Made by a program: the position numbers and the translations under genes | Assembly (NCBI GenBank): GCA_964633905.1 | Contig: CAZWIT010000003.1 | Coordinates: 67,193 to 131,192 of the forward strand | Source: an uncultured Gammaproteobacteria bacterium | Lineage (GTDB): Bacteria; Patescibacteriota; Patescibacteriia; UBA1558; GWA2-36-10 | Direction: 5' to 3' | DNA: 64,000 nt | Notes under the pieces: model-generated | Told to the model about the DNA's origin: nothing | Databases searched by the model: none | The model's input: only the letters and a program-made list of their open reading frames with translations | In this document: positions 34,023 to 63,067 of the stretch, in pieces | Numbering within the stretch: the stretch's first letter is position 1 | Layout: each line of letters starts with the position of its first letter

Positions 34023-34196
34023 TCATTTTGAAGAAAAAACTTCTTCTCGAAAATCACCCTCGCTGGTATATACTTCTAATTCACTGGCAGTATCCTCTGA
34101 TTCACTTGCAAACATTTTAAATACATAGACTAATAAACATATCAGACCAAAACCTAGACCCAACAAACAAAGAATGATAATAAGGACGATTTTCAT
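34023..34196 (-). CDS. Small membrane-anchored acidic protein (57 aa from the internal ATG with SD GGAGGGG)
   Basis: The track ORF 34023..34226 starts at TTG. A stronger start is the ATG at 34196 (GAAGGAGGGGAAAAG-ATG), giving MKIVLIIILCLLGLGFGLICLLVYVFKMFASESEDTASELEVYTSEGDFREEVFSSK. Own promoter TTGCAA-17-TAGTAT and terminator. Confidence 0.5.
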   Translation of the reverse strand: MKIVLIIILCLLGLGFGLICLLVYVFKMFASESEDTASELEVYTSEGDFREEVFSSK

Positions 34197-34608: not shown

Positions 34609-34637
34609 TAGCATAAGTGAAAACAACAACATTGTCA
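34609..34637 (-). promoter_or_regulatory. Consensus sigma70 promoter TTGACA-17-TATGCT (minus strand) for the zinc-ribbon gene
   Basis: -35 at 34632-34637, -10 at 34609-34614, 17-nt spacer. Confidence 0.5.
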
Positions 34638-34640
34638 ATT

Positions 34641-34696
34641 TAAGAAAAAGAAAAGGCCTGCTACGATCTTGCTAGATAAGCAAGGAGCAGGCCTTT
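34641..34696 (-). terminator. Strong intrinsic terminator AAAGGCCTGCT-(24 nt)-AGCAGGCCTTT + TCTTTTTCTT
   Basis: 11-bp GC stem followed by a T-tract immediately after the stop of the GC-rich 355-aa gene. Confidence 0.65.
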
Positions 34697-34723
34697 GAAT
34701 ACGAGTCTTGACACTAGCCTGGG

Positions 34724-35791
34724 CTAGCCACGACGCAGACTGCGCCAGTTGATCGGCTGAGGAGCCACTTGCTGACGCAAACTCTGGCAACGCTCCAGGC
34801 CGAAGCAGTGGAAGGGGCACTCTTGCCCCAAGCACTGCTTGGTTTCCCGGCAGTGCTCATGGGGCAGGTGGTCCGAGCGCACGCCCAGAATAGCAGCGGC
34901 CACAATGACCTCAAACGACAGCTGAGTGACCGGCACGTCCGGATGACTCAAGCTACCATTGAGAAACATCTGGCCGGCTTTCTGGTAGTGCCACTCTTCG
35001 GCACCTTCTACCTTGCCTTCTTGGGCAAGGGTCTCGGCATCCAAGGACTCTTCCAAGCCCTTGGTGGAGCGTTCGCCAACGCGGAGAATGCGCGCCACGT
35101 CTTCCAGTCGCCAGTTCTGCCTGTTGCAGAAAATCTGGACATGCCCAGAAGAACGCTGCACAATCACCACGTCAGCCGCCAGACCGCCGTCCTCGACAGA
35201 GGCACGCGCCATGTTCACAGACATGGTATTGTCGGTCTTGAGCACTGCCAGACGGCAGGCCTTCTGACCGACGACCAGGTCGTGAATTTCGGAATCAGCC
35301 AGCTCGACGCGCGCCGCCTGCCCTCGCTCTTGCTCGGCGTACTTGGCATCAAGTGCCATAATAGCCCAGATAAGAGCATGTTCAGGATCTTTGACGTAGT
35401 GGAACATCAGCTTGGTCAGGGAGAACAAGTCAAAAGGCTGACTGCCTCCGCGTGTGTCGATCCGATGTGTGAATGCCAAAATCTTGGCCAGCGCCGGATC
35501 AGAATCAATCCCTAAGTCCTTGGCTACCAAAGTAGCCGCACACTCAGGACTGGCCTGACCGTTGCGATGTTCGTCAAAACGACCACCGCCAACGCCGATC
35601 AGCAGACAGCCGTCTGCTTCCCACTCTTCTGCCGAGCGATTGTCCGGCGACTTACCACCAGACCAATACTCGACAACAGCCTGATCCACGCCAGGGTATT
35701 TCTTGCTACCCCAGCGCCAGAGCATCCAGATAGCCACGATCTCGTCGAGATGTGGCTTCAGATGCGTCACGATCCTGCGAATATTAGGCAT
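34724..35791 (-). CDS. GC-rich foreign-looking gene: putative metal-dependent hydrolase, MYG1/UPF0160-like N-terminal motifs
   Basis: About 58% GC with CTG/GCG/CGT-rich codons in a one-third-GC genome. Strong SD AAGGAG 6 nt before the ATG. Motifs VTHLKPHLDEIVAIWML and LIGVGGGRFDEH resemble MYG1 THxGxFHxDEALA and DVGGxYD..DHHQ. Many overlapping alternative-frame ORFs are GC artefacts. Confidence 0.6.
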   Translation of the reverse strand: MPNIRRIVTHLKPHLDEIVAIWMLWRWGSKKYPGVDQAVVEYWSGGKSPDNRSAEEWEADGCLLIGVGGGRFDEHRNGQASPECAATLVAKDLGIDSDPALAKILAFTHRIDTRGGSQPFDLFSLTKLMFHYVKDPEHALIWAIMALDAKYAEQERGQAARVELADSEIHDLVVGQKACRLAVLKTDNTMSVNMARASVEDGGLAADVVIVQRSSGHVQIFCNRQNWRLEDVARILRVGERSTKGLEESLDAETLAQEGKVEGAEEWHYQKAGQMFLNGSLSHPDVPVTQLSFEVIVAAAILGVRSDHLPHEHCRETKQCLGQECPFHCFGLERCQSLRQQVAPQPINWRSLRRG

Positions 35792-35962
35792 GAGCCTCTC
35801 CTTCTGCTGCTACTTGCAGCTAGTAATCAAGACTAGGTTGACAATGAACAATCATAGTATTATATCATATATATTAGATTTTGTCAATATTATAAAATTG
35901 ACTGTTTAGCCTATTTTCATTATTATTAATATACTTAAAAAGCTTTAATAAATACTTTATAT

Positions 35963-52592: not shown

Positions 52593-52710
52593 TTTTATTC
52601 TTAACGTCCGCTCGCCCAAATAATTCTTTAAACTGATAAAATTACTGATTTGAAATAAATTCAGGGTGACAATGACTCGGACAAAAAAGTTGATATAAAA
52701 ATAGTTATTT

Positions 52711-52750
52711 AAAATAAAAAAGCCGTGGCAGGATAAGTCCCTACCACGAC
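52711..52750 (-). terminator. Intrinsic terminator CGTGGTAGGG-acttat-CCTGCCACGG + CTTTTTTATTTT (minus strand)
   Basis: Follows the stop (52762) of the GC-rich 107-aa gene. Confidence 0.6.
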
Positions 52751-52761
52751 CGAACAACTTG

Positions 52762-53085
52762 CTAGACATCGATAACGATAATATGGTCGGCCGTACCGTT
52801 ACGCCAGCGCGGGTTAAACCTGGGCTGGTAAAAAGTATCCCGATAGAGCGGCGATAGATCATCGTCACACTGGTGACACTCGCTGTCCTCTGTCAGCACG
52901 ACCAGAGATGCCGACGAGCCAAAGCCAGCGCTCAGGGCTAGCTGATAGGCATCCTCCGGCGACAAAGGCCAACGCGCTTTGATTAGATCAGATAGTATCT
53001 GAGCATTATAACCGTCGCTACCAGTTACCACCTTCATTACCACCTGACCACCCGAACGCACCGTTATCAAGCCTTGTGTAGCCAT
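52762..53085 (-). CDS. GC-rich foreign-looking small protein (107 aa), unknown function
   Basis: About 55% GC coding sequence. SD GGAGGT 9 nt before the ATG. Own promoter TTGACT-17-TATTAT and terminator. MATQGLITVRSGGQVVMKVVTGSDGYNAQILSDLIKARWPLSPEDAYQLALSAGFGSS... Confidence 0.55.
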   Translation of the reverse strand: MATQGLITVRSGGQVVMKVVTGSDGYNAQILSDLIKARWPLSPEDAYQLALSAGFGSSASLVVLTEDSECHQCDDDLSPLYRDTFYQPRFNPRWRNGTADHIIVIDV

Positions 53086-53188
53086 CTTTTACTCACCTCC
53101 CTAAAGAACGTGCCCTAGTTGACAGAAAACAAAATATAATAACATAATTAATATAAAAAGTCAATAGTAAACAATATAACAAAACTAT

Positions 53189-54165: not shown

Positions 54166-54621
54166 ATGAAAATATCCAGTCCTGCTTTTAAGCATAATCA
54201 ATCCATACCTGAAAACTACACTTGCGATGGCGCTAATATTAATCCTCCTTTACAAATTAGTGAGGCGCCTAAGCAAGCTAAAAGTTTGGTTTTAATTATG
54301 GATGATCCTGATGTGCCGAAATTTGTCAGAGAAGATGGCTTGTGGGTACACTGGCTAGTATGGAATATTGATCCTAAAACTACCCTGATACCAGAAAACA
54401 CTCCGGCTATTGGCGTAGTAGGAATAAACACTCGTGGTCTTAATGCTTATGGTGGCCCTTGCCCACCTGATCAAGAGCACCGTTATTTTTTTAAGCTCTA
54501 TGCCTTAGATATAGTTTTAAAGCTTGATAGTTCCAGCGACAAAAATCAACTAGAGCAAGCCATGTTAGGGCACATTATCGAACAAACTGAATTAATTGGT
54601 TTATATAATAGAAAAAAATAA
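54166..54621 (+). CDS. YbhB/YbcL-family phosphatidylethanolamine-binding protein (PEBP)
   Basis: DPDVP, HWLVWNI and RYFFKLYALD motifs. Confidence 0.8.
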   Translation: MKISSPAFKHNQSIPENYTCDGANINPPLQISEAPKQAKSLVLIMDDPDVPKFVREDGLWVHWLVWNIDPKTTLIPENTPAIGVVGINTRGLNAYGGPCPPDQEHRYFFKLYALDIVLKLDSSSDKNQLEQAMLGHIIEQTELIGLYNRKK

Positions 54622-55378: not shown

Positions 55379-55813
55379 ATGATCAGTTTTAAAACCAACC
55401 AACCCGAAGCCGAACAAATTTATACCCAGCGCCCTGGCGCCTATGGCATCCTAGCCAACGACCGTAATCTACTGGCTATAGTCAAAACTAGTCGCGGCTA
55501 TTTTTTACCTGGTGGCGGCATCGAAGCCAACGAATCAGAAGAAGAATGCTTAATCAGAGAATTTATAGAAGAAATTGGTATTAAAATAAAAATAAAAGAA
55601 AAAATCTGCAGTGGTGATTGTTATTTTTATGCCACTACTTCTAATAAATATATCGAAAGTTTGGGACAATTTTACAAGTGCGAAATTGAAGAAATATTAA
55701 ATGTAGCCACTGAAGTTGATCACGAATTAGTTTGGCTAGATCCTAATGAAGCCATCCAACTATTATATTTAGATAACCAAAAAAGAGCTGTCCAAATATT
55801 TTTAGAAAATTAA
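55379..55813 (+). CDS. NUDIX hydrolase
   Basis: Nudix box GGGIEANESEEECLIREFIEEIGI. Confidence 0.75.
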   Translation: MISFKTNQPEAEQIYTQRPGAYGILANDRNLLAIVKTSRGYFLPGGGIEANESEEECLIREFIEEIGIKIKIKEKICSGDCYFYATTSNKYIESLGQFYKCEIEEILNVATEVDHELVWLDPNEAIQLLYLDNQKRAVQIFLEN

Positions 55814-55866
55814 AAAGGATTCTGCCAAAAAAGCAGAACCCAAAATATTGTCACTTTAGCTACTGA

Positions 55867-56148
55867 TTAAAAATTATTTCTCTCTGCCAACCATTTTCTG
55901 GAACGATCACGATCAATCCGCACTTGGAATCTACTGACGCCAACCCTTTTATAAAAAGTGCCGCTATGCCGCGGAAATTCCAGCTCTACTGTAGTTGATA
56001 AGCAGCTAAAAACAAATGACTTCATAAAATGACGAAACAGTTCTCTGGCTGCACCAAAAGAAATACCATGCTCTTTAGAGAGAATTTCCAAATAATCATG
56101 ATAAAGTGCAATATATTCATCAACTGTAAAAGTACGACGTTTATCCAC
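55867..56148 (-). CDS. Hypothetical protein (GTG start), moderately GC-enriched
   Basis: 93-aa ORF with upstream AAAGGGG. Downstream terminator GGGTTCTGC-tttttt-GGCAGAATCC + TTTTTAATTTT. Confidence 0.45.
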   Translation of the reverse strand: MDKRRTFTVDEYIALYHDYLEILSKEHGISFGAARELFRHFMKSFVFSCLSTTVELEFPRHSGTFYKRVGVSRFQVRIDRDRSRKWLAERNNF

Positions 56149-56225
56149 GCTAATTGCCCCTTTCTAACCTGAGGTCAAAACCTAAGCGGGATTTAACTAC
56201 TATAGACTAGACCAAAAAAATAATA

Positions 56226-56561
56226 TTGACAAGTAAAATAATTAAAATAATATTTATGTCTTTTGAAGAAATACCAATGGAGGGCAATATTAGCCAAGCT
56301 CAATTTCTAGTTAAGGTCGCTAACATAAAGCCAGAAGATATTGAAACTTTTAAAGCTAAGTTAGGCGACATTGAAAAAGATATGCTGGAAATAATGCCTT
56401 TTGAAGAAAAACAAATTGTCGTTGCCATGGATAGTTTAAACGATGAAGAATTAGATCGTCTACTGGCTTATAAAAAAAGATTAATCGGTGTCCATGATTT
56501 AAATGGCTATCTTGGGACAATATATGCCCTCACCCAAAATTCCCGTTATCAAAATCGCTAA
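56226..56561 (+). CDS. Hypothetical protein
   Basis: 111-aa ORF. The internal start MSFEE... is an alternative. Confidence 0.45.
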   Translation: MTSKIIKIIFMSFEEIPMEGNISQAQFLVKVANIKPEDIETFKAKLGDIEKDMLEIMPFEEKQIVVAMDSLNDEELDRLLAYKKRLIGVHDLNGYLGTIYALTQNSRYQNR

Positions 56562-56605
56562 AATAAAAACCCGTTGCCTGTGCTAATAGCAAACAGTCAA
56601 CGGGC
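56559..56605 (-). terminator. Intrinsic terminator CCCGTTG-(21 nt)-CAACGGG + TTTTTATTTT (minus strand)
   Basis: About 30 nt downstream of the stop of small ORF 56635..56757. Confidence 0.55.
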
Positions 56606-56634
56606 CGATAGTCTCTGAAAGGTCATCTTGCCTC

Positions 56635-56757
56635 TCAACTTTTGTCCTTCAAGGGTGCTTGGGGGGTAGGCAAACTACCTAATACGCAGACAGCTCTGAC
56701 AGTGAATAAAACAAAGGCTACCAACAAGGTAGTGATTACCGTTAACAAGACAGTCAT
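56635..56757 (-). CDS. Small hydrophobic peptide (40 aa), type I toxin-like; not in the ORF track
   Basis: Perfect SD GGAGGGAGC + ATG at 56757. MTVLLTVITTLLVAFVLFTVRAVCVLGSLPTPQAPLKDKS has a single TM then a polar tail. Leader hairpin GTCTT-tggtcc-AAGAC abuts the SD. Own terminator. Track ORF 56642..56842(+) is its antisense. Confidence 0.45.
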   Translation of the reverse strand: MTVLLTVITTLLVAFVLFTVRAVCVLGSLPTPQAPLKDKS

Positions 56758-56906
56758 ATGCTCCCTCCTTTGTCTTGGACCAAAGACTAGTTTAAATCAA
56801 AACCAGAAACTACAAAAAATGAAATTGTTATCAAACTACTAGTCTGAAAACTAGGCTCCTAATTAAAAGTACACATAGACTACAATCAAATTTAAGCATA
56901 TAAATG

Positions 56907-56939
56907 ACAAAAATAAAAGAGGCGGTCTTAGACCACCTC
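56907..56939 (-). terminator. Intrinsic terminator GAGGtGGTCTaAGACCgCCTC + TTTTATTTTTGTC (minus strand)
   Basis: About 35 nt downstream of the stop of small ORF 56973..57107. Confidence 0.6.
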
Positions 56940-56972
56940 AAAGTAAATAAGATATAAAGAACTATTTGTTAG

Positions 56973-57107
56973 CTAGCCCCAGCGATAAGCCGCAACAGCC
57001 AAGAGTGCCGATGCCAGCAAAAACAAGAGGATATTACGCGCCCGACAACGCAGCTGACGATCGCGTCTGTGCTCCTGGAACTCCATTTGCCTGTCGTAGA
57101 TCTTCAT
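56973..57107 (-). CDS. Small peptide (44 aa) with charged N-terminus and C-terminal TM, type I toxin-like; not in the ORF track
   Basis: GC-rich. SD AGGAGGCAGAAA-ATG. MKIYDRQMEFQEHRRDRQLRCRARNILLFLLASALLAVAAYRWG. Consensus promoter TTGACA-17-TATATT (57167-57195) and a structured 55-nt leader. Confidence 0.45.
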   Translation of the reverse strand: MKIYDRQMEFQEHRRDRQLRCRARNILLFLLASALLAVAAYRWG

Positions 57108-57166
57108 TTTCTGCCTCCTAGCTAAGGGTTTAGCAGGCTCTAGCGGGAACGTTCAAACTGCCCTAT

Positions 57167-57195
57167 AATATAAGCCAAACTAAAAACCTTGTCAA
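57167..57195 (-). promoter_or_regulatory. Consensus sigma70 promoter TTGACA-17-TATATT (minus strand) for small ORF 56973..57107
   Basis: -35 at 57190-57195, -10 at 57167-57172, 17-nt spacer. Confidence 0.5.
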
Positions 57196-57232
57196 TTATT
57201 GTTTTATTAAAAAACTAAGCTTTTAAGCAACT

Positions 57233-57814
57233 ATGCCCAAAACTATTAACCACGATTTATGTTTACAATGTAGCCAGTATCGACAGACTTGTTGTAATTT
57301 TACTGATCATTATATACCGCTCTTAATAGAAGATATGCAAAAAATTCTTGCCCTAGGCTACAAAGTACAAGATTTTATGGTAGCGTCTGAATTTGAAGAA
57401 GATGACTTAAGCGAAGAAGAAGATTGGTGGAAACAAAGTTTAGTCAAAATAGCAGATAAATATTATCAGATCAGTATTTTGTCCAAAGGTGAAGCCGGTT
57501 GCTTATTTTTAAAAAATGGACAAGGATGCACCTTAGGAAAACAAAGACCTGCTATTTGCCGACTTTACCCATTTTGGTTTGACAAAAATAAACAACTTAA
57601 GTATCAAGATGATTTTTGCGAAGCCTACAAACAAAAAATATCTTTTGAGGACTGTATGAAAATCATGGGAGAAAAAGAAGAAGACATCAAAGAATACTAT
57701 GCTAAAATAAGAACTGATTTTATTCAAAAAAAACCTAAATACGAACAATTAACTAAATTACTGCTTGATAAAAAATATGATGATTTGGAAAAAATTATAA
57801 AAAGTGAAAATTAA
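57233..57814 (+). CDS. YkgJ-family (UPF0153, CxxCxxCC putative Fe-S/zinc-binding) protein
   Basis: N-terminal CLQCSQYRQTCC and a second Cys cluster GCLFLKNGQGCTLGKQRPAICRLYPF. Confidence 0.65.
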   Translation: MPKTINHDLCLQCSQYRQTCCNFTDHYIPLLIEDMQKILALGYKVQDFMVASEFEEDDLSEEEDWWKQSLVKIADKYYQISILSKGEAGCLFLKNGQGCTLGKQRPAICRLYPFWFDKNKQLKYQDDFCEAYKQKISFEDCMKIMGEKEEDIKEYYAKIRTDFIQKKPKYEQLTKLLLDKKYDDLEKIIKSEN

Positions 57815-57825
57815 ACCCCTAAAAT

Positions 57826-58383
57826 ATGTCTGAGCAACAAAAAAATAAATGGCCAGGACAAATTCAGGTTTATACTGGTAATAGCAAAGGTAAAACGACT
57901 GCTGCTTTGGGTCTTGCTATCCGCGCTTTGGGCTATGGTCTAAAAGTTGGCATTATCTTTTTTGATAAAGGTGGTGATTATTATCACGAAAGGAAAACTT
58001 TAAAGCAGTTAAATCATCCTAATCTAGATTTTCAAGCCTTTGGCCTGCCTCGCATGACTGGTGGTCGCTTCCGTTTTGATAATTTACCAGGCGATATTAG
58101 CGAAGCTGAAGCAGCTCTGCAAACTGCTGAAAATTGGTTTAAAGATAATAGTTTTGACTTAATAATTTTAGACGAAATCAACACTACTATAGCTACTGAC
58201 TTGCTAAAATTAGACAGTATTGTAAACTTGATTAAGTCAAAGCCTCAAGCCTTAGAATTAGTTCTAACTGGACGCTATTGCCCCGAAGAAATTATTAAAC
58301 TAGCTGACTTAGTAACTGAAATGAACCCAATTAAACATTATATGGATAAAGGCTTAGACGCCCGTCCTGGCATTGAATATTAA
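57826..58383 (+). CDS. cobO: Cob(I)alamin/cob(I)yrinic acid a,c-diamide adenosyltransferase (CobO/BtuR family)
   Basis: P-loop YTGNSKGKTTAA. The C-terminal ...VTEMNPIKHYMDKGLDARPGIEY closely parallels the BtuR C-terminus. Confidence 0.8.
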   Translation: MSEQQKNKWPGQIQVYTGNSKGKTTAALGLAIRALGYGLKVGIIFFDKGGDYYHERKTLKQLNHPNLDFQAFGLPRMTGGRFRFDNLPGDISEAEAALQTAENWFKDNSFDLIILDEINTTIATDLLKLDSIVNLIKSKPQALELVLTGRYCPEEIIKLADLVTEMNPIKHYMDKGLDARPGIEY

Positions 58384-58392
58384 CTTATACCT

Positions 58393-58833
58393 ATGTTAAA
58401 AAAAACAAACTTAATTATATTTATTTTATTGTTAATTGCCGTTATTGGTTTATGGCAAAGCACTTATCAAAGTAAAAAAACCCAACCCAGCAATGAACAG
58501 TTAACTGGGCAAACTCAGGGCAACATTAATGTTAAATTTTCCTTTTCTGAAAACGAAATTGTCAGCCTCTCTCATCCTTATGCCGAAAATATCTCTGCTA
58601 ACTTAGTTACTATCACCCAAAGCCTAACTCAGCAACAAACCTGGGAATTTGAATCAAAAGATTATGGTGAAATGGGCGTCTTGGTCACAAAAATTGGTAA
58701 CAAGAGCAATGGTCAAGAACAAAAATACTGGCAATTTTATGTTAATGGCGAACAACCAATGATGTCAGCTGATAAATTCTCCCCAAAAAATGGCGACCAA
58801 ATAGAATGGCGCTTTGCGGAATCAAAATTTTAA
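58393..58833 (+). CDS. DUF4430-family secreted protein (transcobalamin-like, putative cobalamin-binding)
   Basis: Signal/TM N-terminus. C-terminal YWQFYVNGEQPMMSADKFSPKNGDQIEWRF is typical of DUF4430. Sits between cobO and a small polytopic membrane protein. Confidence 0.5.
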   Translation: MLKKTNLIIFILLLIAVIGLWQSTYQSKKTQPSNEQLTGQTQGNINVKFSFSENEIVSLSHPYAENISANLVTITQSLTQQQTWEFESKDYGEMGVLVTKIGNKSNGQEQKYWQFYVNGEQPMMSADKFSPKNGDQIEWRFAESKF

Positions 58834-58851
58834 TTTTTACCAATAATAGAT

Positions 58852-59370
58852 ATGAATAATAAAAATCTTTGGCTAATAATAACCTTAAGCATTCTAGCCC
58901 TACTCGCGCGTCTAATTTGGCATTTGCCAAACTTCTCGCCCTTGGCTAGCTTGATCTTATTTGCTGGCTACTACACACCAAAAAAATATTGGCCCTTACC
59001 ATTTATTAGTTTATTTATTTCTGATTTAATTATTGGTTTTTACGCTTGGCCAGTAATGTTATCGGTTTATATTGCTTCTGCTTTTAATTTATACCTAGGT
59101 CGTTTACTACAAAAAAATAGTAATGCCATAAATATTGCCAGCAGCACTCTAGCATCTGCCTTGATATTTTTCTTGATTACCAACTTGGCTGTTTGGGCTA
59201 GTGGCGATTGGTATGCTCACAACCTAAACGGACTATACCTCTGCTTTGCCTTAGCAATACCATTTTTTAAAACTACTTTGCTCAGCAATATTTTATACAC
59301 TGGCCTGATATTTACCCCTATTAAATTGATTGAAACTATCCGCCATAAACAAGCCTTGACTAACAAATAA
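58852..59370 (+). CDS. Small polytopic membrane protein, possible ECF-type S component (cobalamin?)
   Basis: 172 aa, 5-6 TM. Genomic context with cobO and DUF4430. Confidence 0.45.
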   Translation: MNNKNLWLIITLSILALLARLIWHLPNFSPLASLILFAGYYTPKKYWPLPFISLFISDLIIGFYAWPVMLSVYIASAFNLYLGRLLQKNSNAINIASSTLASALIFFLITNLAVWASGDWYAHNLNGLYLCFALAIPFFKTTLLSNILYTGLIFTPIKLIETIRHKQALTNK

Positions 59371-61760: not shown

Positions 61761-61854
61761 TAATTTACAGCCTTGCTTTTTGCTGTTAAAATTGCTAATA
61801 TACAGTTTCGTTTTGCCCTTTATTATTCACCCTTGCCTAAGAAAGGACTGCCAC

Positions 61855-62061
61855 ATGTTCAAGCCTGGCGACCATGTCCGGGTCATCCCGGCCTACAGCG
61901 GACCGCTGCAGACGGCCCATGTGCGTATTACCGTAAACCACGGCTTTGGCCCCTTCCGGGTCATCGGGGTGCATCCTCAGGACAGAGGCGGACAGGTCCT
62001 CTGTCTGCAGGTCGGTAACCATCAGACAACCGTCGATTCCCGCATCTTCCAGCCGGCCTAG
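61855..62061 (+). CDS. GC-rich foreign-looking small protein (68 aa), SH3/KOW-like beta-rich, unknown function
   Basis: About 65% GC with very high GC3. SD AAGAAAGGA 7 nt before the ATG at 61855. The track's TTG-start extension (61780) is an AT-rich leader. MFKPGDHVRVIPAYSGPLQTAHVRITVNHGFGPFRVIGVHPQDRGGQVLCLQVGNHQTTVDSRIFQPA. Confidence 0.5.
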   Translation: MFKPGDHVRVIPAYSGPLQTAHVRITVNHGFGPFRVIGVHPQDRGGQVLCLQVGNHQTTVDSRIFQPA

Positions 62062-62082
62062 CTATCCTGAAGGCGATTTAAG

Positions 62083-62119
62083 CCACAAAGGGCGCGCACA
62101 CCAGTGCGTCGCCCTTTCT
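62083..62119 (+). terminator. Strong intrinsic terminator AAAGGGCGCGCAC-acca-GTGCGTCGCCCTTT + CTTTT
   Basis: 13-bp GC-rich stem plus T-run, 20 nt after the stop of the 68-aa ORF. Confidence 0.65.
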
Positions 62120-62149
62120 TTTAAATCAATTATTTGTTAAATTTAAGCT

Positions 62150-63067
62150 ATGAAATTTACTTACCAACAAACAAATAAAGAACGTTTGGATAAATACCTC
62201 CAAACACAGCTCAATATCAGCCGTAGCCAAATAAAAAAAATTATTTTGGATGGTCAGGTTAAAGTTAACCAAGAAATATCTAGCGTTCATCATTGGCTTA
62301 AAGCTAATGATTTGATTGAATATAAGGCTAAAGAAGTTGACCAAAATAATCCAATTGCCAAAAAAAATAACAAAATAATCAAACCCCGCATTATCAAACA
62401 AACTGATGATTATTTAATTATCAATAAACCACATGGCCTACTAGTACACCCTACTGACAAAAAAGAAACTAATACTCTAGCTAATTGGCTACTGGAAAAA
62501 TTTCCTGATTTAATCCATGTTGGCGATGATCCTAGGCGCCCTGGCATTGTCCATCGTTTAGACCGAGAAGTCTCGGGACTAATGATTATTGCTTTAAATC
62601 AAAAATTTTTTGAAATTATCAAAAAACAATTTCAAGAAAGAACCATTATTAAAGAATATACCGCCCTAGCTCATGGTAATATTATCAATAACGAAGGTGA
62701 GGTCATCACACCTTTAGAGAGAGATAATGAAACTGGGCTCATGAAAGCCTTACCGGCAGGCGAAGGCTTAAATGCTCATACTACTTATGAAGTTATAAAA
62801 CGTTATCCTAATTATACTTTAATCAAAGTCCAAATTAAGACTGGAAGAATGCACCAAATTCGTGCCCACCTTTATAGCATTGGCCATTCTATAGTTGGTG
62901 ATAAACTTTATCAAACTAAAGATTTGCGTAAAAAGAAAAAAATTGTTAACTTGCGCATTTTCCTTCACGCTAGTTCCCTAAAATTTCAAGATGCTCGAGG
63001 CCAGTGGCAATCCTATCAATCAAAATTACCAATTGAGTTAGAAAAATTTTTAGCTGAATTAAAATAA
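62150..63067 (+). CDS. rluD: RluA-family 23S rRNA pseudouridine synthase (RluD-like, N-terminal S4 domain)
   Basis: S4 domain (RLDKYLQTQLNISRSQIKKIILDGQVKVN), catalytic HRLDREVSGLMIIA, and the KEYTALAHG / GRMHQIRAHL motifs. Confidence 0.8.
   Translation: MKFTYQQTNKERLDKYLQTQLNISRSQIKKIILDGQVKVNQEISSVHHWLKANDLIEYKAKEVDQNNPIAKKNNKIIKPRIIKQTDDYLIINKPHGLLVHPTDKKETNTLANWLLEKFPDLIHVGDDPRRPGIVHRLDREVSGLMIIALNQKFFEIIKKQFQERTIIKEYTALAHGNIINNEGEVITPLERDNETGLMKALPAGEGLNAHTTYEVIKRYPNYTLIKVQIKTGRMHQIRAHLYSIGHSIVGDKLYQTKDLRKKKKIVNLRIFLHASSLKFQDARGQWQSYQSKLPIELEKFLAELK

What the first reader, a model, noticed from the sequence alone, without database searches (positions are those of the whole stretch)
56559..57195. 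Tandem pair of small hydrophobic peptides resembling type I toxin loci
Two minus-strand ORFs of 40 and 44 aa (56635..56757 and 56973..57107) are missing from the track because they are under 60 aa. Each has a perfect SD (GGAGGGAGC-ATG; AGGAGGCAGAAA-ATG) and its own intrinsic terminator. The second has a consensus promoter TTGACA-17-TATATT. Both have folded leaders that can occlude the SD (GTCTT-tggtcc-AAGAC abutting the SD; CTAA-accc-TTAG in the other). Each peptide is one TM helix plus a charged tail: MTVLLTVITTLLVAFVLFTVRAVCVLGSLPTPQAPLKDKS and MKIYDRQMEFQEHRRDRQLRCRARNILLFLLASALLAVAAYRWG. This architecture matches Hok/Ldr/Ibs/Fst-type membrane toxins whose translation is controlled by antisense RNA. 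The loci sit in a GC-enriched segment. A plus-strand ORF in the track (56642..56842) is antisense to the first peptide, which fits an antitoxin RNA region.
Basis: partly seen in the sequence, partly recalled or inferred. Interest (0 to 1): 0.75.

Follow-up and report, generated by a model that had tools for sequence, protein, structure and literature searches.

The report
Two unannotated conserved small membrane-protein genes
The two tiny ORFs are real, conserved genes for small membrane proteins of unknown families that gene callers missed, but every testable hallmark of an antisense-RNA-controlled type I toxin locus is absent.

Summary
The sequence features are real. Two minus-strand ORFs (40 aa, 56635..56757; 44 aa, 56973..57107) each have a strong SD and an intrinsic terminator. 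The 44-aa gene has an 11/12 sigma-70 promoter that is invariant in six related loci. Comparison with five other lineages shows both ORFs are protein-coding (dN/dS 0.15-0.39; only the sense frame is clean). Each has one TM helix. Both families are orphans: no hit in Pfam, NCBIfam, PADLOC, PDB, plasmids or phages, and only one orthologue among 1.84 billion representatives.

The type I toxin reading fails every feature I could test:
- no antisense promoter or structured antisense RNA;
- the leader folds less well than shuffled controls and has no conserved SD-occluding structure;
- the two units are unrelated, not a tandem duplication;
- there are no paralogues.

New points:
- The 40-aa gene is ancestrally the second cistron of a two-gene operon with a 56-aa two-TM protein, which this strain has lost.
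- That cassette has a phylogeny discordant with its flanks, which indicates exchange between lineages.
- The 44-aa gene probably shares a bidirectional promoter with a cobalamin-related operon.
- Both small genes keep an unusually high GC3.

Toxicity itself could not be tested. Interest is moderate to low.

The parts
57167..57195 (-). Promoter P2 of the 44-aa gene: -35 TTGACA (57195..57190), 17-nt spacer, -10 TATATT (57172..57167).
   Evidence: 11/12 match. Both hexamers and the following ATAGGGCRG are invariant or nearly so in six loci.
57164..57172 (+). Plus-strand -10-like elements overlapping P2's -10 box: TATAAT (57164..57169) and TAATAT (57166..57171). Inferred divergent half of a bidirectional promoter for the CxxCxxCC-btuR operon, whose ATG is at 57233.
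   Evidence: Read directly from the sequence. It recurs as the only conserved plus-strand promoter-like site in L002, L005 and L006. The architecture is described in doi 10.1101/2020.01.31.928960. No TSS data, so this is inferred.
57108..57160 (-). 5' leader of the 44-aa gene, about 53 nt with the TSS inferred. It contains the conserved block GTTCCCGCTAGAGCC (57150..57136) and the SD AGGAGG (57120..57115).
   Evidence: The block is 15/15 identical in L004 and L006 and 13/15 in L002. No conserved structure. It folds worse than shuffles. No convincing second copy in the window. On the plus strand it covers the -35 position of the TATAAT at 57164.
56973..57107 (-). p44: a 44-aa protein with a basic 25-residue N-terminal head and a C-terminal TM (residues 26-41). 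Predicted N-in and C-tail-anchored.
   Evidence: Orthologues in L002, L003/L004, L005 and L006. dN/dS 0.15-0.39. The sense frame is the only clean frame. Hydropathy and flank charge +4/+5. Invariant M1 K2 Y4 Q11 D16 L19 R20 N25 L35 L36 A37.
56909..56939 (-). Intrinsic terminator of the p44 unit: GAGGTGGTC-TAA-GACCGCCTC followed by TTTTATTTTT.
   Evidence: Conserved with a shifted wobble pair in L002. It is a local folding minimum.
56884..56898 (-). Invariant block TGnTTAAATTTnATT: probable extended -10-type promoter P1 of unit 1.
   Evidence: Identical in the window, L002, L005 and L006 at the same position downstream of terminator 2. The promoter role is inferred. It was not reported by the consensus scan.
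56758..56870 (-). Degraded remnant of the ancestral first cistron p56 (a 56-aa two-TM protein). The SD is reduced to AGGAGCC (56860..56854), the ATG is lost and about 75 nt are deleted.
   Evidence: Alignments. p56 is intact in L002, L005 and L006 with dN/dS 0.26-0.30. No significant translated remnant in the window.
56635..56770 (-). p40 with its SD AAGGAGG (56770..56764): a 40-aa protein with an N-terminal TM and a Pro-rich basic C-terminal tail. Predicted N-out and C-in.
   Evidence: Orthologues of 37-39 aa in L005, L002 and L006, overlapping the p56 stop by ATGA. dN/dS 0.20 against L005. Invariant G27 P30 P32 P35 K39. C-flank charge +2 to +6.
56560..56604 (-). Intrinsic terminator of unit 1: 12-nt arms at 56604..56593 and 56581..56570, followed by TTTTTATTTT. 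It is convergent with the end of the 111-aa plus-strand gene (stop at 56561).
   Evidence: Conserved in L002 and L006. L005 has a different but complementary stem (CCCGTCGC/GCGACGGG). It is a local folding minimum.

Best explanation
The interval holds two independent transcription units for bona fide small inner-membrane proteins from previously undescribed families. It is not a type I toxin-antitoxin pair.

**Unit 2.** This is a monocistronic gene that looks strongly expressed. It has a near-consensus sigma-70 promoter, an unstructured ~53-nt leader, a strong SD, a 44-codon ORF and an intrinsic terminator. The product, p44, is predicted to be C-tail-anchored. A basic 25-residue head stays in the cytoplasm (positive-inside rule) and residues 26-41 span the membrane. 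Its promoter most likely forms one bidirectional promoter, through overlapping -10 boxes, with the divergent CxxCxxCC - BtuR/CobO - DUF4430 - DUF6580 operon, so the two would be co-controlled at initiation.

**Unit 2, inferred function.** p44 acts as a small membrane-embedded accessory or modulator of a larger membrane or membrane-proximal protein.

**Unit 1.** This is what remains of a two-cistron operon, p56 (two TM) followed by p40 (one TM with a Pro-rich basic cytoplasmic tail). In relatives the two are translationally coupled through an ATGA overlap. In this strain p56 has been deleted. The promoter block, p40's own SD, its ORF and the terminator remain. The p56-p40 cassette has been exchanged between lineages and exists in at least two allelic types.

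**Shown:** coding status, membrane character, expression signals, synteny, loss of p56, and cassette discordance.

**Inferred:** topology, bidirectional promoter use, high expression, and the accessory-subunit role.
For: - **Coding:** the ORFs are kept open with the same start position in 4-5 lineages. dN/dS is 0.15-0.39 for p44, 0.09-0.31 within p40 subtypes and 0.26-0.30 for p56. Third-position changes dominate. The p44 sense frame is unique in having zero stops and a median omega of 0.24. ATG/GTG start-codon interchange occurs with the rest of the gene conserved.
- **Membrane character:** Kyte-Doolittle 15-residue maxima of 2.8-3.4 and consistent flank charges.
- **Expression signals:** an 11/12 promoter that is invariant in six loci; strong SDs; terminators with compensatory changes; an open initiation region.
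- **Not a structured RNA:** no Rfam hit at E<=1; fold z-scores of 0.0 and -1.5.
- **Ancestral operon and loss of p56:**
- **Cassette exchange:** L002 vs L006 is 78-90% identical across unit 1 but 52-75% across p44 and CxxCxxCC. The window vs L002 is 20-62% across unit 1 but 74-88% in the flanks.
- **Bidirectional promoter:** plus-strand TATAAT/TAATAT overlaps the minus-strand -10 box. It is the only recurrent plus-strand site and fits doi 10.1101/2020.01.31.928960.
- **Against a toxin locus:**
Against: - There are no expression, localisation or interaction data. The 'accessory subunit' role is an inference from analogy and base rates.
- Small size, one TM and a polar C-terminal tail (p40) also fit the loose protein-level criteria for type I toxins (PMC2887945).
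- Cassette exchange and loss of p56 suggest a dispensable, possibly conflict-related module, not a housekeeping subunit.
- Antitoxin sRNAs can have weak promoters or act in trans from elsewhere in the genome. Neither would be seen here.
- The conserved leader block (57136-57150) and the persistently high GC3 (0.41-0.74 against 0.20-0.25 in the neighbouring gene) are not explained.
- Only 4-6 lineages are available, and all were retrieved through the neighbouring gene, so the synteny is partly an effect of how the loci were found.
- The plus-strand -35 is poor (2/6).
Confidence: 0.6

Rival explanations
1. Type I toxin-antitoxin loci. p40 and/or p44 would be membrane-depolarising toxins whose translation is repressed by a cis-antisense or trans-acting small RNA.
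For: Both are under 70 aa with one TM. p40 has a polar, charged C-terminal tail, and three p44 orthologues end in the aromatic/basic YRWG. These match the protein-level criteria in PMC2887945. The genes sit alone in a 670-nt intergenic gap and gene callers miss them. The unit 2 leader carries a conserved block of unknown function that could be an RNA target.
Against: - No antisense promoter at the tool's threshold, and none recurring in relatives.
- No plus-strand terminator.
- No structured antisense RNA by local folding minima.
- The leaders are less folded than shuffles and have no conserved SD sequestration.
- A near-consensus promoter plus a strong SD would be lethal for an unrepressed toxin.
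- The two units are not homologous and there are no paralogues.
- No toxin family HMM matches, and there are no relatives on plasmids or phages.
- p40 is normally the second cistron of a translationally coupled operon.
Confidence: 0.12
2. Unit 1 (p56 + p40) is an exchangeable two-protein membrane conflict module, for example a small membrane-active peptide with its two-TM immunity or partner protein, or a holin/antiholin-like pair. In this strain it is decaying after losing one component. p44 would be unrelated to it.
For: The cassette phylogeny is discordant with the flanks, with sharp boundaries at the conserved promoter block and the terminators. There are two allelic p40 types. p56 has been lost in the window. 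The two membrane peptides are tightly coupled translationally.
Against: - All three ORFs are under purifying, not diversifying, selection within each type.
- There is no secretion leader, processing site, transporter or phage context nearby.
- No PADLOC or Pfam hit.
- Only four cassettes have been sampled, so the discordance could reflect a single recombination event with no functional meaning.
Confidence: 0.12
3. The GC-rich segments are non-coding RNA genes (small RNAs, or a leader or riboswitch for the adjacent cobalamin-related operon), and the ORFs are incidental.
For: The segments are GC-enriched islands in an AT-rich genome, with a promoter and terminators. GC3 stays high despite near-saturated synonymous divergence, which hints at a constraint beyond the protein. 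The neighbouring operon is cobalamin-related.
Against: - No Rfam family, including the cobalamin riboswitches, at E<=1 on either strand.
- Fold z-scores of 0.0 and -1.5.
- No covarying structure.
- There is a clear protein-coding substitution pattern, with the frame, length, SD and start codon preserved.
- The transcription signals point away from the cobalamin operon.
Confidence: 0.04

Closest known systems
Type I toxins (Hok/Gef, Ldr, Fst, Ibs, TisB, ShoB, ZorO) with antisense sRNA antitoxins
   Same: Both are very small proteins with a single TM helix. Both are encoded alone in intergenic DNA with their own promoter and terminator, and gene callers miss them. p40 has a polar, charged C-terminal tail.
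   Different: There is no detectable antisense RNA gene, no structured or SD-sequestering leader and no tandem homologous copies. There is no sequence or HMM similarity and no link to plasmids or prophages. p44's polar domain is N-terminal and long (25 aa). p40 is ancestrally the distal cistron of a coupled two-gene operon. The expression signals look constitutive and strong.
Bacterial small membrane accessory or regulatory proteins (for example AcrZ, KdpF, CydX, MgtS, MgrB; named from general knowledge, not tested here)
   Same: They are 30-55 aa single-pass inner-membrane proteins translated from their own SD. They are conserved under purifying selection within a clade and are usually unannotated.
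   Different: Those examples have known partners and are often encoded in or next to the partner's operon. Here no partner is known. p44 is monocistronic and divergent from a cobalamin-related operon, and p40's only evident partner is p56. The families are unrelated in sequence.
C-tail-anchored inner-membrane proteins of the ElaB/YqjD/YgaM type (general knowledge)
   Same: p44 has the same overall layout: a charged, probably helical cytoplasmic N-terminal part and a single TM at the extreme C-terminus.
   Different: Those proteins are about 100 aa and carry a DUF883 domain. p44 is 44-54 aa and has no Pfam hit at E<=1; three of its orthologues have none meaningful at E<=10.
Bidirectional promoters arising from -10 element symmetry (doi 10.1101/2020.01.31.928960)
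   Same: -10-like hexamers overlap on opposite strands (minus TATATT at 57172..57167; plus TAATAT at 57166..57171 and TATAAT at 57164..57169). This gives predicted divergent start sites about 16-18 bp apart, between two divergent genes.
   Different: No TSS mapping is available. The plus-strand -35 is poor (2/6), although the DNA at that position is a conserved block.

Membership tests
Type I toxin-antitoxin locus | Toxin under about 70 aa with a predicted transmembrane helix | tested here: met
   p40 and p44 each have a 15-residue segment with mean Kyte-Doolittle 2.8-3.4. The criterion is from PMC2887945.
Type I toxin-antitoxin locus | [quoted passage not shown] | tested here: inconclusive
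   p40 meets it (…PTPQAPLKDKS; RKPRPRPPVRGKF in L002). In p44 the polar domain is N-terminal, and the C-terminus is YRWG in three lineages but an acidic, Pro-rich extension in two.
Type I toxin-antitoxin locus | An antisense (cis) or partly complementary (trans) small RNA antitoxin gene with its own promoter, typically stably folded | tested here: not met
   No plus-strand promoter-like site lies within 56559-57195. None recurs in relatives except the mirror image of P2's -10 box, which points away from the gene. There is no plus-strand terminator. Local folding minima occur only at the two terminators. A trans-encoded sRNA elsewhere in the genome cannot be excluded.
Type I toxin-antitoxin locus | Toxin mRNA with a structured 5' region that limits ribosome access to the SD | tested here: not met
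The leader plus initiation region gives z = +2.2, +1.0, +1.4, +0.85 and -0.9 against shuffles. The consensus structure is -1.4 kcal/mol.
Type I toxin-antitoxin locus | Frequent tandem duplication of homologous toxin units, or paralogous copies | tested here: not met
   p40 against p44 gives no BLASTP alignment at E<=100. Only trivial A-rich DNA repeats are shared. There are no paralogues in the 64-kb window.
Type I toxin-antitoxin locus | Sequence membership in a described toxin family (Hok/Gef, Ldr, Fst, Ibs, TisB and others) | tested here: not met
   No Pfam or NCBIfam hit at E<=1 for the window peptides. Nothing meaningful at E<=10 for the orthologues. No PADLOC hit. That Pfam contains these toxin families is from my own knowledge.
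Type I toxin-antitoxin locus | Growth arrest or membrane damage on overexpression, relieved by the RNA antitoxin | not testable with these tools
   This needs an experiment.
Bacterial small membrane proteins (accessory/regulatory class) | A translated ORF of about 50 aa or less, with a single TM, its own SD, and conservation under purifying selection | tested here: met
   Translation itself is inferred, not observed.
Bacterial small membrane proteins (accessory/regulatory class) | A physical or functional partner (transporter, kinase, oxidase and so on) | not testable with these tools
   There are only contextual hints: p40 is coupled to p56 in relatives, and p44 is always divergent from the CxxCxxCC-BtuR-DUF4430-DUF6580 operon in the six loci. 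Those loci were retrieved through that operon.
Structured non-coding RNA (any Rfam family, including cobalamin riboswitches) | A match to a covariance model, or a thermodynamically or covariation-supported structure | tested here: not met
   No match at E<=1 in 55500-58500 on either strand. Fold z-scores are 0.0 and -1.5. No supported consensus structure.
Bidirectional promoter (-10 symmetry type) | Overlapping -10 elements on opposite strands, with divergent TSSs about 18 bp apart | tested here: inconclusive
   The sequence arrangement is present and conserved. No TSS data are available, and the plus-strand -35 is poor.

The most novel reading that the evidence does not exclude
The locus encodes a new kind of small-membrane-peptide conflict or addiction system that works without an antisense RNA. 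The p56-p40 cassette would be an exchangeable peptide and partner (toxin/immunity-like) module. p44 would be a potentially harmful tail-anchored peptide whose output is set by RNA-polymerase competition at a bidirectional promoter shared with a cobalamin-salvage operon. The selectively maintained GC-rich synonymous sites would reflect a second, RNA-level function of these tiny mRNAs.
Probability: 0.08. Interest if true: 0.7.

Novelty: new member of a known kind. Interest (0 to 1): 0.35.

Why it matters
Small membrane proteins are systematically missed by gene callers. None of the pipelines behind L001 and L003-L006 called p44 or p40, although an ENA pipeline did call the L002-type p44 and p56. 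Here three orphan families (p44, p40, p56) gain comparative support as real genes in a poorly known, AT-rich uncultured lineage. This is useful for annotation, and it is a concrete example of why 'small + hydrophobic + intergenic' is not enough to call a type I toxin.

Two features could repay follow-up. One is a compact cassette that has been swapped between lineages and is half lost in this strain. The other is a strong promoter that looks bidirectional with a vitamin B12-related operon. If p44 turned out to be an accessory factor of that uptake and salvage system, it would be a new component of it. None of this is very surprising to a specialist.

Tried and rejected
- **Structured RNA or riboswitch.** The GC-rich islands and the neighbouring cobalamin operon suggested this. 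Rfam at E<=1 and whole-window gathering thresholds found only four tRNAs. ARAGORN found no tmRNA. Fold z-scores were unremarkable. Rejected.
- **Exact-sequence look-ups of the two peptides:** not on record.
- **Word-based homology search with p44:** no candidates.
- **Full HMMER scan of 1.84 billion representatives with p44:** only the L002 orthologue.
- **Profile search with p56:** only itself.
- **Metagenome scans** with the neighbouring gene and with p44, and a viral scan: nothing.
- **Plasmid and phage tblastn:** nothing.
- **Pfam, NCBIfam, PADLOC and PDB profile searches:** nothing significant.
- **Conserved leader structure or SD occlusion:** none.
- **Recurrence of the conserved leader block as a regulatory motif in the window:** only 3-mismatch matches, not convincing.
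- **The antisense ORF 56642..56842 as a gene or antitoxin region.** It is a shadow frame that shares third positions with p40. Its length varies, it has no SD or promoter and there is no folding minimum.
- **High-expression codon bias as the cause of the high GC3.** I could not test this because the window holds no ribosomal-protein or other reference genes.
- **Structure prediction.** I did not run it on 40-44-aa single helices because the result would not discriminate between the hypotheses.
Full report
**What is in the sequence.**

The 672-nt gap between the plus-strand 111-aa gene (stop at 56561) and the plus-strand CxxCxxCC gene (ATG at 57233) holds two minus-strand units.

Unit 2:
- promoter TTGACA-17-TATATT at 57195..57167, 11 of 12 matches;
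- a leader of about 53 nt;
- SD AGGAGG at 57120..57115;
- a 44-codon ORF at 57107..56973;
- a terminator with a 9-bp GC-rich stem at 56939..56919 plus TTTTATTTTT.

Unit 2 is followed by a conserved block (56898..56884) and a stretch of about 110 nt with no ORF.

Unit 1:
- SD AAGGAGG at 56770..56764;
- a 40-codon ORF at 56757..56635;
- a long hairpin with arms at 56604..56593 and 56581..56570, plus TTTTTATTTT.

The segment is 45-57% GC in a 34% GC window.

**Is it RNA or protein?**

The plus-strand genes from 57233 onward are CxxCxxCC, BtuR/CobO, DUF4430 and DUF6580. Because of that, I first tested for a riboswitch or another structured RNA.
- Rfam found nothing at E<=1 on either strand in 55500-58500.
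- Across the whole window it found only four tRNAs.
- Neither unit folds better than dinucleotide shuffles (z = 0.0 and -1.5).

**Relatives.**

The peptides are absent from public protein collections as exact sequences, and p44 gave no word-based homologue. I reached relatives through the adjacent CxxCxxCC gene:
- L001, a near-identical assembly;
- L002, a GTDB MAG labelled 'uncultured Gammaproteobacteria', 76% identical in that gene;
- via homologues P0002-P0005, the contigs L003/L004 (81%), L005 (64%), L006 (57%) and L007 (65%).

Gene callers left the small ORFs uncalled in L001 and L003-L006 (L007 has a called minus-strand ORF upstream). An ENA pipeline did call the L002-type p44 and p56 (P0006, P0007).

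**p44 is a real gene.**

An ORF beginning M/V-K-T/I-Y sits 123-142 nt from the CxxCxxCC start in the window, L002, L003/L004, L005 and L006. It is 44 aa in three lineages and 54 aa in two.
- Pairwise dN/dS is 0.15-0.39, and third-position differences dominate.
- Of the six frames, only the annotated one has zero stops together with low omega (median 0.24).
- The start codon alternates between ATG and GTG while the SD is kept.
- Invariant residues are M1 K2 Y4 Q11 D16 L19 R20 N25 L35 L36 A37.
- The hydrophobic segment is always residues 26-40. The N-terminal flank carries +4 to +5 net charge, and the C-terminal flank +1 to -2. By the positive-inside rule (established knowledge), this predicts an N-in, C-tail-anchored protein.

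**p40 is also a real gene, but it is half of an older operon.**

In L002, L005 and L006 the equivalent 37-39-aa ORF is preceded by an SD-led 56-aa ORF with two hydrophobic segments. The stop of that ORF overlaps the short ORF's start (ATGA).
- p56 has dN/dS of 0.26-0.30.
- The p40 family has dN/dS of 0.09-0.31 within subtypes, and 0.20 for the window against L005.
- p40 invariants are G27 P30 P32 P35 K39, and the C-flank charge is +2 to +6. This predicts an N-out, C-in topology.

In the window, and in L001, the p56 SD is reduced to AGGAGCC, the ATG is gone and about 75 nt are missing. No translated remnant is detectable. By parsimony across the CxxCxxCC identities, p56 was ancestral and was lost in this lineage.

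At the same position, relatives have p56 coding sequence and no such hairpin.

**Testing the type I toxin model.**

Fozo et al. 2010 (PMC2887945) list the working characteristics:
- a protein under 70 aa with one TM and a polar or aromatic C-terminal cluster;
- frequent tandem repeats of homologous units;
- an antisense sRNA detectable as a local folding minimum.

The protein-level criteria are loosely met: p40 yes, p44 only partly. Everything else fails.
- There is no plus-strand promoter-like site inside the interval. With a relaxed rule applied to four lineages, the only recurring plus-strand site is the reverse complement of P2's own -10 box.
- There is no plus-strand terminator.
- A 100-nt sliding fold scan on both strands finds minima only at the two terminators.
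- The p44 leader plus initiation region is less folded than shuffles in four of five lineages, and the alignment supports no structure.
- The two units are unrelated and have no paralogues in the window.
- There is no match to Pfam, NCBIfam or PADLOC, to plasmids or phages or to PDB sequences.
- Across 1.84 billion representative proteins, the only p44 relative is the L002 orthologue. p56 found only itself.
- The plus-strand ORF 56642..56842 is a shadow frame whose third positions coincide with p40's. Its length is 76, 60, 36 and 46 codons in four lineages, and it has no SD.

**Promoter region.**

P2's two hexamers and the following ATAGGGCRG are invariant or nearly so in six loci. On the plus strand the same DNA reads TATAATATA. 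This gives TATAAT at 57164..57169 and TAATAT at 57166..57171. The latter is in the register where positions 2 and 6 of opposed -10 boxes pair, which is the commonest bidirectional-promoter geometry (18 bp between TSSs) described in doi 10.1101/2020.01.31.928960.

The CxxCxxCC start is only 38 nt beyond P2's -35 box, so its promoter has to overlap P2. The 15-nt block GTTCCCGCTAGAGCC (57150..57136) is identical in L004 and L006 and is not explained by RNA structure. It lies exactly at the -35 position of that plus-strand promoter.

I therefore infer one bidirectional promoter serving p44 and the cobalamin-related operon. This is inference, with no TSS data behind it. A transcript from that promoter runs away from p44 and cannot act as its antisense.

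**Cassette exchange.**

Identities are discordant between genes.
- L002 against L006: 59% in CxxCxxCC and 55% in p44, but 79% in p56 and 89% in p40.
- The window against L002: 76% and 73% in the flanking genes, but 30% in p40.
- At the DNA level, L002/L006 identity is 78-90% across terminator 1, p40, p56 and the P1 block. It then drops to 52-75% from terminator 2 onward.
- Window/L002 identity is 74-88% in the flanks but 20-62% between 56599 and 56872.

Unit 1 has therefore moved between lineages, or exists as old alleles. The conserved promoter block and the terminators mark its boundaries.

**Composition.**
- GC3 is 0.66 for p44 and 0.50 for p40, against 0.28 +/- 0.09 for long ORFs in the window.
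- It stays high in the orthologues (p44 0.41-0.74; p40 0.49-0.68), while the adjacent gene is at 0.20-0.25.
- This holds even though dS between lineages is 0.8 to more than 2.
- TTA makes up 51% of Leu codons in the window's ORFs, but only 1 of 35 in the p44 family.

So synonymous composition is maintained by some force. It could be expression-linked codon bias, mRNA stability or an RNA-level role, and I could not tell which. Several other short GC-rich protein genes occur in the window.

**Verdict.**

The toxin-antitoxin interpretation lacks all of its testable defining features. The best-supported reading has three parts:
- an apparently strongly expressed, tail-anchored 44-aa membrane protein that shares a bidirectional promoter with a B12-related operon;
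- the surviving distal cistron of an exchangeable two-peptide membrane cassette;
- membership of new orphan families within the known class of bacterial small membrane proteins.

The biochemical function remains inferred.

Noticed in passing
window 57233-59370 (+): This is an operon-like run: a CxxCxxCC (PF03692) protein, BtuR/CobO corrinoid adenosyltransferase, a DUF4430 protein and a DUF6580 membrane protein. It looks like a cobalamin uptake and salvage cluster, yet no cobalamin riboswitch is detectable upstream at E<=1. The first gene has no recognisable SD in any of the six lineages.
   Followed up: partly
window 34626-35854; ORF 34724..35791 (-): A 355-aa ORF has GC3 of 0.66 (66% GC peak) in a 34% GC window, with a 218-aa shadow ORF on the opposite strand. 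Its composition looks foreign or otherwise atypical.
   Followed up: no
window 61781-62150; ORF about 61855..62061 (+): A 65% GC island lies immediately after tRNA-Arg and tRNA-Lys. It looked like a structured RNA, but there is no relevant Rfam hit and fold z is -1.5. It reads as a 68-aa protein gene (MFKPGDHVRVIPAYSG...) with an SD and a hairpin plus T-run terminator, and it is conserved in L002.
   Followed up: partly
window 52704-53135; ORF 52762..53085 (-): This is another GC-rich island (61% GC) encoding a 107-aa ORF (MATQGLITVRSGG...). Together with p44, p40 and the two items above, it shows that short GC-rich genes recur in this AT-rich genome.
   Followed up: no
window 34023..34196 (-): This is the only other ORF in the window that passes a 'small + strong SD + TM segment' filter. 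It is 57 aa (MKIVLIIILCLLGLGFGLICLLVYVFKMF... with an acidic tail), has normal GC3 (0.25), and lies next to the GC-rich 355-aa gene.
   Followed up: no
L007 1-200 (-): The JGI contig's copy of p44 starts MKTYERQ and then leaves the family's reading frame. The TM-like segment (RKRTLKLLFLLLTIFSFLVNLLF*) is in another frame. This is a frameshifted pseudogene or an assembly error. JGI called a 65-aa ORF here that runs off the contig.
   Followed up: partly
L003 1-80: The ENA scaffold L003 diverges from its near-twin L004 inside the last codons of p44, switching to very GC-rich sequence. This is probably a chimeric assembly junction. L004 shows the intact 44-aa ORF.
   Followed up: partly
window 56718-56732 (-): A terminator-like site (CTACCTTGTTGGTAG followed by a T-rich run) lies inside the p40 ORF. 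It is not conserved in relatives and is most likely a chance match.
   Followed up: partly
window 54166-54621 vs L001 907-1116: The otherwise 99.2%-identical assembly L001 has a shorter called PEBP-family gene (69 aa against 151 aa in the window). A position-by-position comparison also goes out of register from about 54360. This indicates an indel difference between the two assemblies.
   Followed up: no
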